Positions 55,909 to 58,599 of a stretch of 64,000 nt of DNA are shown one piece after another. Position 1 is the stretch's first letter; the number at the start of each line of letters is the position of its first letter. Source of the DNA: Escherichia coli O157:H7 (GTDB lineage: Bacteria > Pseudomonadota > Gammaproteobacteria > Enterobacterales > Enterobacteriaceae). The stretch lies in NCBI RefSeq assembly GCF_013167455.1, contig NZ_CP038328.1, one strand, 5' to 3'. Position numbers: made by a program.

Positions 55909-58599
55909 TGAATAATCGAGTCCACCAGGGCCACTTAGCCCGTAAACGCTTCGGGCAAAACTTTCTCAACGATCAGTTCGTGATCGACAGCATTGTTTCT
56001 GCCATTAACCCGCAAAAGGGCCAGGCAATGGTCGAAATCGGCCCCGGTCTGGCGGCATTGACCGAGCCGGTCGGCGAACGTCTGGACCAGCTGACGGTCA
56101 TCGAACTTGACCGCGATCTGGCGGCACGTCTGCAAACGCATCCATTCTTAGGCCCGAAACTGACGATTTATCAGCAGGATGCGATGACCTTTAACTTTGG
56201 CGAACTGGCCGAGAAAATGGGTCAGCCGCTGCGTGTTTTCGGCAACCTGCCTTATAACATCTCCACGCCGTTGATGTTCCATCTGTTTAGCTATACTGAT
56301 GCCATTGCCGACATGCACTTTATGTTGCAAAAAGAGGTGGTGAATCGTCTGGTTGCAGGACCGAACAGCAAAGCGTATGGTCGATTAAGCGTCATGGCGC
56401 AATACTATTGCAACGTGATCCCGGTACTGGAAGTTCCGCCGTCAGCCTTTACACCACCACCCAAAGTGGATTCCGCCGTCGTGCGCCTGGTTCCTCATGC
56501 AACGATGCCTCACCCGGTTAAAGATGTTCGTGTGTTGAGCCGCATCACCACCGAAGCCTTTAACCAGCGTCGTAAAACCATTCGTAACAGCCTCGGCAAC
56601 CTGTTTAGCGTCGAGGTGTTAACGGGAATGGGGATCGACCCGGCGATGCGAGCGGAAAATATCTCTGTCGCGCAATATTGCCAGATGGCGAACTATCTGG
56701 CGGAGAACGCGCCTTTTCAGGAGAGTTAACGATGATCAATTCGCCCCGAGTGTGTATTCAGGTTCAAAGCGTCTACATTGAGGCACAATCTTCACCTGAT
56801 AATGAACGTTACGTTTTTGCTTATACCGTAACCATACGCAATCTGGGGCGAGCGCCAGTGCAGTTGTTGGGGCGTTACTGGCTGATCACCAATGGCAATG
56901 GCCGTGAAACCGAAGTCCAGGGCGAAGGAGTGGTTGGCGTCCAGCCACTTATCGCGCCTGGCGAAGAGTACCAGTACACCAGCGGTGCAATCATTGAAAC
57001 CCCGCTGGGCACCATGCAGGGTCACTACGAAATGATCGATGAAAATGGCGTCCCTTTCAGCATCGACATTCCCGTATTCCGACTCGCCGTTCCCACACTC
57101 ATTCATTAAAAGAATATGGCGACATACCTTATTGGCGACGTTCATGGTTGTTACGATGAACTGATCGCATTGCTGCATAAAGTAGAATTTACCCCTGGGA
57201 AAGATACCCTCTGGCTGACGGGCGATCTGGTCGCGCGCGGCCCGGGTTCGCTGGATGTTCTGCGCTATGTGAAATCCTTAGGCGACAGCGTACGTCTGGT
57301 GCTGGGCAATCACGATCTGCATCTGCTGGCAGTATTTGCCGGGATCAGCCGCAATAAACCGAAAGATCGCCTGACACCGCTGCTGGAAGCGCCGGATGCC
57401 GACGAGCTGCTTAACTGGCTGCGTCGCCAGCCTCTGCTGCAAATCGACGAAGAGAAAAAGCTGGTGATGGCCCACGCAGGGATCACGCCGCAGTGGGATC
57501 TGCAGACCGCCAAAGAGTGCGCGCGCGATGTAGAAGCGGTGCTGTCGAGTGACTCCTATCCCTTCTTTCTCGACGCTATGTACGGCGATATGCCAAATAA
57601 CTGGTCACCGGAATTGCGGGGGCTGGGAAGACTGCGGTTTATCACCAACGCCTTTACCCGTATGCGTTTTTGCTTCCCGAACGGTCAACTGGATATGTAC
57701 AGCAAAGAATCGCCGGAAGAGGCCCCTGCCCCACTGAAACCGTGGTTTGCGATTCCTGGACCTGTCGCTGAAGAATACAGCATCGCCTTTGGTCACTGGG
57801 CATCGCTGGAAGGCAAAGGTACGCCGGAAGGTATTTACGCGCTGGATACCGGCTGCTGCTGGGGTGGGTCATTAACCTGCCTGCGCTGGGAAGATAAACA
57901 GTATTTTGTCCAGCCGTCGAACCGGCATAAGGATTTGGGTGAGGGAGAGGCGGTCGCGTCTTAAATCCCGTCGAGCATAAAATCTAATGCTCCTTTAATC
58001 AACGTTCGGTGCGCGCTGGCATCGCAAAATTTCGTTCCCAGCGCGTTAACTGGAACAGTTGCAGTCTCATGCGTCATGAGCACATATTCTTTGCCGTCTA
58101 CCAGTAAAAGGATTGGGTTAAGCCGTTCTGGTGGGCGAATACGGCTAAATCGTTCAATAGGTGTTAATGGAATAACAATACGGCGATTAATCACACCAAT
58201 AATGTCGCTGGTAACATCGATAACAAAGGGAAACGCGGCGTTCCTGCTGCGACTGCGGTATACCGTAAATTGCATCGCTAGAAGCTCCGGTACTCATCAG
58301 AGAAACATCCGGTTTCATCAGCCAATTGATTTAACGCAGCGATAGCTTCAGCGTTCTCTTCACGCCAACGTGTTGCTGCATGTTTTTTAAGTTCAGCATT
58401 GAGCGCAACCGTAAGGGTGGCGCTCATATTTAAGCCTGCATCACGAGCGCGATTGACTAACTCACGGTCGACGGTGACGGTCACACTTTGTGTGGTACGT
58501 TTTGCAGTCATGATATCGTGCTCCTGTACAATTTATACGTCTAGTATACACGGATATCTGCACGTATCAGTGATGCCGGAATTCTAATATACAAAATTA

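What the first reader, a model, noticed from the sequence alone, without database searches (positions are those of the whole stretch)
57961..58596. Chromosomal ccdA/ccdB-type toxin-antitoxin pair wedged between apaH and folA
Two small minus-strand ORFs (77 aa and 104 aa, 2-nt gap) fill the apaH-folA interval. The downstream product aligns along its length with F-plasmid CcdB and the upstream one with CcdA. The ccdB stop and the convergent apaH stop share the tetranucleotide TTAA at 57961-57964. The pair is co-oriented with folA and only 85 bp downstream of it with no obvious terminator between, so folA read-through could feed the module. From memory, K-12 has only a short spacer here, and a chromosomal ccd at this site has been described for O157-type strains; that is recollection, not a search.
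Basis: partly seen in the sequence, partly recalled or inferred. Interest (0 to 1): 0.55.

Follow-up and report, generated by a model that had tools for sequence, protein, structure and literature searches.

The report
Known chromosomal ccdAB toxin-antitoxin (ccdO157)

Summary
The 77-aa and 104-aa minus-strand ORFs, the 2-nt gap, the shared TTAA stop overlap with apaH and the 85-bp spacer after folA are all as described. Both ORFs match Pfam CcdA and CcdB over their full length (E 1.5e-26 and 1.4e-31).

The window is E. coli O157:H7. The locus is nucleotide-identical to Sakai ECs_0052/0053, and the proteins carry the same accessions as in EDL933. That is the published ccdO157 system (Wilbaux 2007; Mine 2009), so nothing here is new in kind.

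Points I added:
- The insert is present in 2021 of 5426 complete E. coli genomes. It takes the place of the 77-bp REP-containing spacer seen in K-12.
- It has foreign base composition (GC3 42-43% against 56-64% in the flanks).
- E. albertii carries it at the same site.
- The spacer holds a predicted promoter. Its -10 hexamer overlaps a GTATAC palindrome, the motif at the centre of the F-plasmid ccd operator.
- No terminator is predicted between folA and ccdA, so read-through remains possible but untested.
- The O157 allele is the intact form. Elsewhere ccdB is often broken while CcdA stays nearly invariant.
- About 27% of carriers have a mutation at one of three key -10 positions.

The parts
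57961..58275 (-). ccdB (CcdB_O157 toxin, 104 aa, predicted gyrase poison). The C-terminus is ...FMLDGI.
   Evidence: ORF. Pfam PF01845, E 1.4e-31, full length. PDB CcdB of V. fischeri 8e-17 and of F plasmid 5e-11; nucleotide-identical to Sakai ECs_0053; same protein accession, WP_001160975.1, as in EDL933.
58278..58511 (-). ccdA (CcdA_O157 antitoxin, 77 aa). The whole protein aligns with F-plasmid CcdA (residues 8-75), and its C-terminal part (residues 45-76) aligns with the separately crystallised C-terminal CcdA fragment.
   Evidence: Pfam PF07362, E 1.5e-26. F CcdA 2adl 9e-6 over residues 8-75, and CcdA fragment 3g7z over residues 45-76; identical to Sakai ECs_0052 and EDL933 WP_000125566.1.
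58512..58596 (-). folA-ccdA spacer (85 bp, 37.6% GC) holding the predicted ccd promoter/operator. No terminator is predicted.
   Evidence: Only 5 of 85 positions differ from E. albertii.
58543..58570 (-). Sigma-70-like promoter: -35 CTGATA (58570-58565), 16-nt spacer, -10 TATACT (58548-58543).
   Evidence: 9 of 12 matches, and the number of such sites in the region is at chance level. Independent support: three different natural mutations fall on -10 positions 1, 2 and 6.
58544..58549 (.). Perfect GTATAC palindrome overlapping the -10. Imperfect copies follow on the ccd strand: GTATAA (58538-58533) and GTACAG (58529-58524), at 11 and 9 nt start-to-start. A further GTATAT lies at 58592-58587.
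   Evidence: only 4 GTATAC in 64 kb, one of them here. The F ccd operator centre has one perfect and two imperfect GTATAC palindromes at about 12-bp spacing (PMC5389731). The pO157 ccdF upstream region shows ATATAC/GTATAC/GTATGT.
58521..58525 (-). Shine-Dalgarno AGGAG for ccdA. A GGAG inside the ccdA 3' end, 9 nt before the ccdB ATG, suggests coupled translation.
   Evidence: Read directly from the sequence.
57961..57964 (.). TTAA: overlapping stop codons of the convergent ccdB and apaH genes.
   Evidence: The same junction is present in E. albertii and in the third state of the site.
58012..58045 (.). G+C-rich inverted repeat inside the 3' part of ccdB, 48-84 nt past the apaH stop on the apaH strand. 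It may be a 3'-end structure for apaH transcripts; this is an inference only.
   Evidence: (repeat I1). It is kept in E. coli and E. albertii alleles and absent from the K. aerogenes homolog, which sits in a different context.
58597..59076 (-). folA (flank, co-oriented, upstream). Carries the O157:H7 lineage substitution W47R.
57116..57964 (+). apaH (flank, convergent). This is the 282-aa form; K-12 has 280 aa.

Best explanation
The locus is ccdO157, the chromosomal type II toxin-antitoxin operon of the CcdAB family that lies in the folA-apaH interval of E. coli O157:H7.

Shown here: two tightly spaced genes encode full-length CcdA and CcdB family proteins that are identical to those of strains Sakai and EDL933.

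Taken from the literature on these same proteins: CcdB_O157 poisons DNA gyrase. CcdA_O157 neutralises it. The F-type CcdA of pO157 can also neutralise CcdB_O157, but CcdA_O157 does not neutralise CcdB_F.

Inferred here: the pair is transcribed from its own weak sigma-70 promoter in the 85-bp spacer. The -10 hexamer (TATACT, 58548-58543) overlaps a GTATAC palindrome, with two imperfect copies 9-11 bp apart. This is the layout of the central CcdA2 binding sites in the F operator. The operon is therefore probably auto-repressed by CcdA-CcdB chains in a ratio-dependent way, as in F. ccdB translation is probably coupled to that of ccdA.

The module is foreign DNA in a known plastic site. In this strain it is the intact version of a system that is decaying across the species, and it has no proven benefit to the host.
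For: Family.

Identity with the published system: the 1201-bp query spanning the module and both junctions (window 57700-58900) is 100% identical to O157:H7 chromosomes. The RefSeq annotation agrees. The genes are nucleotide-identical to Sakai ECs_0052/0053, and EDL933 has the same WP accessions. Papers place ccdO157 between folA and apaH and report gyrase targeting and the cross-neutralisation pattern (PMC3184786; PMC7167474; PMC7232551; PMC3920263; PMC7354431; PMC10305079; PMC2241611).

Foreign origin: GC3 is 42-43% against 56-64% in the flanks. 2021 of 5426 genomes carry the insert, and K-12-type sites hold a 77-bp REP-containing spacer instead. A 71%-identical pair with the same 77/104-aa, 2-nt-gap layout sits in a different context in K. 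aerogenes.

Promoter/operator. The spacer is nearly invariant between E. coli and E. albertii. Natural variants hit -10 positions 2, 6 and 1 in 399, 144 and 4 genomes, against 1358 with the wild-type sequence.

Expression: ECs0052/0053 rise 5.3-fold entering stationary phase.

Decay elsewhere: ccdB is frameshifted, stopped or truncated in 9 of 18 sampled lineages (the O157:H7 allele counted once plus 17 other E. coli loci), while CcdA is the same protein in 15 of the 17 other loci. Against E. albertii, pN/pS is 0.47 for ccdB and 0.09 for ccdA.
Against: Both proteins score below NCBIfam's curated cut-offs for the F-plasmid equivalogs (62 vs 147 bits and 38.6 vs 100 bits). They are family members, not F-type orthologs.

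Trp99, which is critical in F CcdB, is Asp here. PMC7232551 calls the effect of this unknown. However, Asp is nearly invariant at this position across the 104-aa chromosomal subfamily, so it is not a lesion.

The promoter call is a 9-of-12 consensus match, and the number of such sites in the region equals the shuffle expectation. CcdA_F itself discriminates palindromes poorly (PMC5389731). The operator is therefore inferred, not shown.

I could not read the two primary papers. One review (PMC10886550) gives the opposite direction of cross-protection from three others.
Confidence: 0.93

Rival explanations
1. Stress or persistence module. Antitoxin degradation under stress would free CcdB_O157, which is weakly toxic. 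Transient gyrase inhibition would then produce drug-tolerant persisters, so the host keeps the locus because it is useful.
For: Reviews cite Gupta et al. 2017 for ccdO157 conferring multi-drug tolerance, and describe the O157 toxin as somewhat attenuated (PMC11059956; PMC10886550). Transcripts rise at stationary-phase entry (PMC2241611) and under bile salts in an AIEC strain with the same locus (PMC7232551).
Against: 63% of complete E. coli genomes lack the module. ccdB is broken in about half of the sampled carrier lineages, and pN/pS for ccdB is 0.47. These are the marks of relaxed constraint, not of a maintained host function. PMC3920263 summarises chromosomal CcdB toxins as evolving neutrally.
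Confidence: 0.25
2. One reading: the module is expressed mainly by read-through from folA. The insert took the place of the REP element that follows folA in K-12, so ccdAB levels would track folA transcription.
For: The genes are co-oriented and 85 bp apart. No terminator-like site is predicted in the spacer, and its fold is not better than shuffles (z -1.09). The K-12 spacer, in contrast, folds strongly around a REP palindrome (z -2.32).
Against: The spacer carries its own promoter-like site and F-like operator palindromes. Natural mutations cluster on that -10, which suggests it matters. ccdA is listed as changing 5.3-fold at the stationary transition, while folA does not appear in that paper's main text. 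From memory only, Wilbaux 2007 measured promoter activity for ccdO157.
Confidence: 0.1
3. Anti-addiction module. The chromosomal CcdA would protect the cell from post-segregational killing by the F-type ccd of pO157.
For: pO157 does carry an F-type ccdAB. The Dickeya chromosomal ccd, which belongs to the same 104-aa subfamily (58% identity), is reported to protect against F ccd (PMC10305079). One review states this for O157 as well (PMC10886550).
Against: Three reviews citing Wilbaux 2007 say the reverse. CcdA_F neutralises CcdB_O157, but CcdA_O157 does not neutralise CcdB_F, and F ccd evades the chromosomal antitoxin (PMC3920263; PMC7354431; PMC10305079). CcdA_O157 is only 30% identical to CcdA_F.
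Confidence: 0.03
4. The copy in this window is an inactive relic, as in many other E. coli strains.
For: Decay is common elsewhere. This allele has two private substitutions, G10S and E28V, compared with the common B2 allele.
Against: Both ORFs are full length. All residues invariant in the subfamily are present, and the promoter core is the majority form. The proteins are the very ones (EDL933) reported as a functional toxin and antitoxin (plus the reviews above).
Confidence: 0.03

Closest known systems
ccdO157 of E. coli O157:H7 EDL933/Sakai (Wilbaux et al. 2007 J Bacteriol 189:2712; Mine et al. 2009 Genetics 181:1557)
   Same: Everything tested is the same: nucleotide-identical genes, spacer and junctions in Sakai, identical protein accessions in EDL933, and the same folA-apaH position.
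   Different: Nothing. This is that system.
ccdAB of the F plasmid and of pO157 (ccdF)
   Same: The operon order is the same (antitoxin first, toxin second, a 1-2 nt gap). Both proteins have the same Pfam families and align end to end. A GTATAC-type palindrome cluster lies upstream of ccdA. The C-terminal Gly-Ile of the toxin is kept.
   Different: Identity is only 36% (CcdB) and 30% (CcdA), and scores fall below the NCBIfam equivalog cut-offs. Trp99 is replaced by Asp. The location is chromosomal, not plasmid. The predicted operator is shorter (85-bp spacer against 113 bp). Reported differences: no neutralisation of CcdB_F by the chromosomal antitoxin, and attenuated toxicity. From memory of Wilbaux 2007, there is also no post-segregational killing.
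104-aa chromosomal CcdB subfamily of Enterobacterales (for example Dickeya/Erwinia chrysanthemi ccd, and Klebsiella, Salmonella and Xenorhabdus copies)
   Same: The proteins are 104 and 77 aa, the 2-nt gap is kept in K. aerogenes, the xDGI C-terminus is nearly invariant, and identity is 52-90%.
   Different: The insertion sites differ (K. aerogenes: between a YicS-family (PF27428) gene and a LacI-family regulator gene). Only Escherichia (E. coli and E. albertii) has the module between folA and apaH.
Vibrio fischeri CcdB (PDB 2kmt, 3jsc)
   Same: It is the best solved-structure match (E 8e-17). It too lacks Trp at the F Trp99 position.
   Different: It comes from a different species and context, and it has Thr rather than Asp at that position.

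Membership tests
CcdB toxin family (Pfam PF01845) | Full-length match to the CcdB profile | tested here: met
   E 1.4e-31, model positions 1-101 of 101.
CcdB toxin family (Pfam PF01845) | C-terminal residues needed for gyrase poisoning in F CcdB (Trp99-Gly100-Ile101) | tested here: inconclusive
   Gly and Ile are kept and Trp is replaced by Asp. Asp is nearly invariant in the chromosomal 104-aa subfamily, and V. fischeri CcdB also lacks the Trp, so Trp does not define the family.
CcdB toxin family (Pfam PF01845) | Poisons DNA gyrase (GyrA) | not testable with these tools
   Reported for the identical EDL933 protein by Wilbaux 2007, as cited in PMC2241611 and PMC10886550.
F-plasmid CcdB equivalog (NCBIfam NF010262) | Score at or above the curated cut-off of 147 bits | tested here: not met
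   62.1 bits. The protein is a family member, not an F-type ortholog.
CcdA antitoxin family (Pfam PF07362) | Full-length match to the CcdA profile, including the C-terminal toxin-binding region | tested here: met
   E 1.5e-26, model positions 2-71 of 71; residues 45-76 align with the crystallised C-terminal CcdA fragment (3g7z).
F-plasmid CcdA equivalog (NCBIfam NF010264) | Score at or above the curated cut-off of 100 bits | tested here: not met
   38.6 bits.
Type II toxin-antitoxin operon | Antitoxin gene directly upstream of the toxin gene, same strand, a few nt apart | tested here: met
   2-nt gap, with a GGAG 9 nt before the ccdB ATG.
Type II toxin-antitoxin operon | Own promoter overlapped by palindromic antitoxin binding sites (autoregulation) | tested here: inconclusive
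   A promoter-like site has its -10 overlapping GTATAC plus two imperfect copies, and natural -10 mutations are recurrent. No binding or reporter data could be produced.
Type II toxin-antitoxin operon | Labile antitoxin (Lon) and stable toxin | not testable with these tools
   From my memory of the Wilbaux 2007 abstract, CcdA_O157 is degraded by Lon. I did not verify this in a held paper.
ccdO157 locus | [quoted passage not shown] | tested here: met

The most novel reading that the evidence does not exclude
Two linked readings are not excluded.

(1) With the REP element absent after folA and no terminator predicted, folA transcripts could run into ccdAB and on into antisense apaH. Antitoxin and toxin supply would then be tied to folate or trimethoprim stress. 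This could also keep ccdA expressed in the roughly 27% of carriers whose own -10 is mutated.

(2) Decay of this module may usually begin with a promoter knock-down rather than with a toxin lesion. Three different -10 mutations are each shared by strains whose ccdB is either still full length or broken in different ways.

I do not know whether Mine 2009 already reported the promoter variants.
Probability: 0.15. Interest if true: 0.45.

Novelty: already known. Interest (0 to 1): 0.12.

Why it matters
The finding is useful as a correct annotation: the window carries the intact reference allele of a well-studied chromosomal gyrase-poison/antidote pair. The system serves in the field as a model for how toxin-antitoxin modules enter chromosomes, interact with plasmid homologs and decay. 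It opens no new question by itself. The small additions are the three-state site, the same insertion in E. albertii, and the recurrent -10 promoter mutations in about a quarter of carriers. These could sharpen the picture of how such modules are silenced, if they are not already in the primary papers.

Tried and rejected
- I tried to read the primary papers: Mine 2009 (PMC2666520), Wilbaux 2007 (DOI and PMC1855815), Gupta 2017 (PMC5585702) and Xu 2020 (PMC7293176). None is held, so experimental claims are taken from reviews that cite them.
- Terminator search in the spacer and past ccdB: nothing in the spacer. Two weak terminator-like sites lie inside ccdB, at the chance rate.
- Target-site duplications or flanking inverted repeats that might mark a transposition: only short matches at chance level. 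An 11-nt inverted pair (57944-57954 / 58599-58609) lies in the apaH 3' end and across the folA stop codon and 3' end. I did not pursue it.
- The idea that Asp at the Trp99 position marks an inactive toxin: rejected, because Asp is the subfamily norm.
- The idea that strict CcdA conservation needs a special function: not required. An antitoxin cannot be lost before its toxin, and overall divergence is low.
- Literature search for FolA W47R: no hits.
- The association between a mutated -10 and a broken ccdB is 8 of 11 against 1 of 7 (Fisher one-sided p = 0.025). The strains fall into a few clades, so I treat this as suggestive only.
- I ran no structure prediction, because close homologs have solved structures and the sequence evidence is decisive.

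Full report
**Observation.**
- A 104-aa ORF lies at 57961..58275 and a 77-aa ORF at 58278..58511, both on the minus strand and separated by 2 nt (TAG-CG-ATG).
- The downstream ORF's stop and the stop of the convergent apaH (57116..57964, plus strand) form TTAA at 57961-57964.
- folA (58597..59076, minus strand) ends 85 bp upstream of the 77-aa ORF.

**Family assignment.**
- The 104-aa protein matches Pfam CcdB over the whole model (E 1.4e-31). The 77-aa protein matches Pfam CcdA over the whole model (E 1.5e-26).
- Among solved structures, the best toxin hits are V. fischeri CcdB (8e-17) and F-plasmid CcdB (5e-11). The best antitoxin hit is F-plasmid CcdA (9e-6).
- Against the F-type pair carried by pO157, identity is 36% and 30%, aligned end to end.
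- Both proteins hit NCBIfam's F-plasmid equivalog models but fall well below the curated cut-offs (62 vs 147 bits and 38.6 vs 100 bits). They are CcdA/CcdB family members, not F-type orthologs. RefSeq names them accordingly.

**Identity with the published system.**
- A 1201-bp query spanning the module (window 57700-58900) is 100% identical to E. coli O157:H7 chromosomes.
- ccdA, ccdB, folA and apaH are nucleotide-identical to O157:H7 Sakai, where the pair is ECs_0052/ECs_0053, 'CcdA-like' and 'CcdB-like'.
- EDL933 carries the same protein accessions, WP_000125566.1 and WP_001160975.1.
- Held papers describe this locus as ccdO157, located between folA and apaH in O157:H7, in a plastic intergenic region that in K-12 is a 77-bp spacer and in about half of isolates holds a REP sequence (PMC3184786; PMC7167474; PMC7232551).
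- Reviews citing Wilbaux et al. 2007 report three things. CcdB_O157 targets gyrase. The plasmid antitoxin CcdA_F neutralises CcdB_O157. CcdA_O157 does not neutralise CcdB_F (PMC2241611; PMC3920263; PMC7354431; PMC10305079).
- One review (PMC10886550) states the opposite direction of protection. I follow the majority, which also matches my memory of the original abstract.
- The two primary papers are not in the library.

**Population picture.**
- Of 5426 complete E. coli genomes, 2021 (37%) hold the filled site. All copies are single and chromosomal.
- K-12-type sites have 77 bp that fold strongly around a REP-like palindrome.
- About 540 genomes give two separate matches (5967 places for 5426 records). 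The three I opened show a third state: apaH, a DUF4291 gene, a hypothetical gene, a 45-59-aa remnant of a different ccdA (81% nucleotide identity over 77 nt), then folA.
- The module has foreign composition, with GC3 of 42-43% against 56-64% in the flanks and a spacer at 37.6% GC.
- An E. albertii genome has the same kefC-folA-ccdA-ccdB-apaH layout and the same junctions.
- A K. aerogenes homolog (71% identity) sits in an unrelated context.
- CcdB_O157 belongs to a 104-aa chromosomal subfamily spread over Enterobacterales, with a nearly invariant xDGI C-terminus. The Asp at the position of F Trp99 is therefore a subfamily trait, not damage.

**Regulation (inferred).**
- The scan finds one sigma-70-like site in the spacer: -35 CTGATA at 58570-58565 and -10 TATACT at 58548-58543. 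By itself this is a chance-level call.
- The -10 overlaps a perfect GTATAC palindrome (58544-58549), one of only four in the 64-kb window. It is followed by GTATAA and GTACAG at 11 and 9 nt.
- The F operator has, at its centre, one perfect and two imperfect GTATAC palindromes about 12 bp apart. They are bound by CcdA2 dimers bridged by CcdB2, which gives ratio-dependent repression (PMC5389731). The pO157 copy shows them.
- The spacer differs at only 5 of 85 positions between E. coli O157 and E. albertii.

**Natural variation supports the -10.**
- The 61-bp promoter core (58517-58577) is identical to the window in 1358 carrier genomes.
- It carries A-to-T at -10 position 2 in 399 genomes, T-to-C at position 6 in 144, and T-to-C at position 1 in 4.
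- These three variants account for 547 of the 663 non-identical genomes.

**Read-through.** No terminator-like site is predicted in the spacer, and its fold is unremarkable (z -1.09). folA read-through is therefore possible but untested. In Sakai, ccdAB rises 5.3-fold at entry to stationary phase, while folA is not mentioned in that paper's main text.

**Decay elsewhere, intact here.** I compared the O157:H7 allele with 17 other filled E. coli loci.
- CcdA is the same protein in 15 of the 17 other loci. The only variant seen is T34M.
- ccdB shows a 13-nt deletion, another frameshift, and stops at L37, C84 and G95. It also shows substitutions at residues that are invariant in the subfamily (R32S, I35N).
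- ccdB is broken in 8 of 11 loci with a mutated -10, against 1 of 7 lineages with the wild-type -10 (six loci plus the O157:H7 allele). Fisher one-sided p is 0.025, but the strains are not phylogenetically independent.
- Within the position-2 clade the lesions differ between strains. In the position-6 and position-1 groups some strains still have a full-length ccdB. The promoter changes may therefore predate the ORF lesions.
- Against E. albertii, pN/pS is 0.47 for ccdB and 0.09 for ccdA.
- All of this fits the published 'decay' picture.
- The window's allele has both ORFs intact, every subfamily-invariant residue present, and the majority promoter core. It is the live version.

**Verdict.** The feature is the already known ccdO157 module. 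Its biochemical mechanism is well established for the identical proteins. Its benefit to the host, if any, remains debated: neutral or selfish remnant against a contribution to drug tolerance.

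Noticed in passing
window 58936-58938 (folA codon 47, minus strand): FolA carries W47R (AGG instead of TGG). The change is shared by O157:H7 Sakai, EDL933 and PV15-279 (WP_000624372.1). It is absent from K-12, from nearly all the other E. coli loci sampled (16 carry the common WP_000624375.1), and from E. albertii. It looks like a lineage-specific change in an essential enzyme. A full-text search for W47R with dihydrofolate reductase found nothing.
   Followed up: partly
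window 58543-58548; loci L005, L007, L016-L019, L024-L028: Three different point mutations hit positions 1, 2 and 6 of the predicted ccd -10 hexamer (which overlaps the GTATAC palindrome). Together they are in 547 of 2021 ccd-bearing E. coli genomes (399, 144 and 4). They mostly co-occur with a broken ccdB. The E. albertii copy also has the position-6 change, plus an ATA in place of the ccdB ATG.
   Followed up: partly
L009:4604-5942, L010, L011 (strains RM9975, PD7, P276M): A third state of the folA-apaH site: a DUF4291 gene and a hypothetical gene, co-oriented with apaH, next to a 45-59-aa remnant of a divergent ccdA (81% nucleotide identity to window 58286-58362). About 540 genomes give the split match expected for this or other inserts.
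   Followed up: partly
window 57937-57957 (apaH 3' end): ApaH ends ...LGEGEAVAS (282 aa) in ccd-bearing strains, third-state strains and E. albertii. It ends ...LGEAAAS (280 aa, a 6-nt difference) in the two REP-type empty sites examined (K-12 and strain 10035776-3). The polymorphism at this hotspot therefore reaches into the apaH coding end.
   Followed up: partly
window 57961-58511 compared with L013 and L004: Synonymous divergence of ccdA and ccdB (pS 0.13 and 0.11 against E. albertii; 0.02-0.03 against a B2 strain) is about half or less that of the adjacent folA and apaH (0.26-0.31; 0.09). This hints at more recent shared ancestry of the module, for example by recombination, than of its flanks. 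The genes are small, so the estimates are noisy.
   Followed up: partly
window 58012-58045: A G+C-rich hairpin (a 9-bp perfect stem, GCGCGCUGG paired with CCAGCGCGC) lies inside the ccdB 3' coding part, just past the apaH stop on the apaH strand. It is kept in E. coli and E. albertii alleles and absent from the K. aerogenes homolog, which is not next to apaH. It could be the 3'-end structure of apaH transcripts.
   Followed up: partly
window 3410-3499 (-): An Rfam match to PssrA ('Plasmid-encoded Shigella sRNA A', 105 bits) falls on the ftsA-ftsZ junction and the ftsZ 5' region of the chromosome, not on a plasmid. Other Rfam hits are as expected: SgrS 29907-30133, the leu leader 24999-25148 and the TPP riboswitch 32899-32998.
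   Followed up: no
L003:4128-4718 (Sakai ECs_0051); window 58597-59211: The older Sakai annotation starts folA at an upstream in-frame ATG (591 nt), whereas RefSeq and K-12 use the 480-nt gene. The window's mechanical ORF is likewise longer (204 aa). This is an annotation artefact, not biology.
   Followed up: no
literature (PMC10886550 against PMC3920263, PMC7354431, PMC10305079): One 2024 review says the chromosomal CcdA protects cells from F-plasmid CcdB. Three other reviews citing the same primary paper say it does not, and that only CcdA_F cross-neutralises CcdB_O157.
   Followed up: partly
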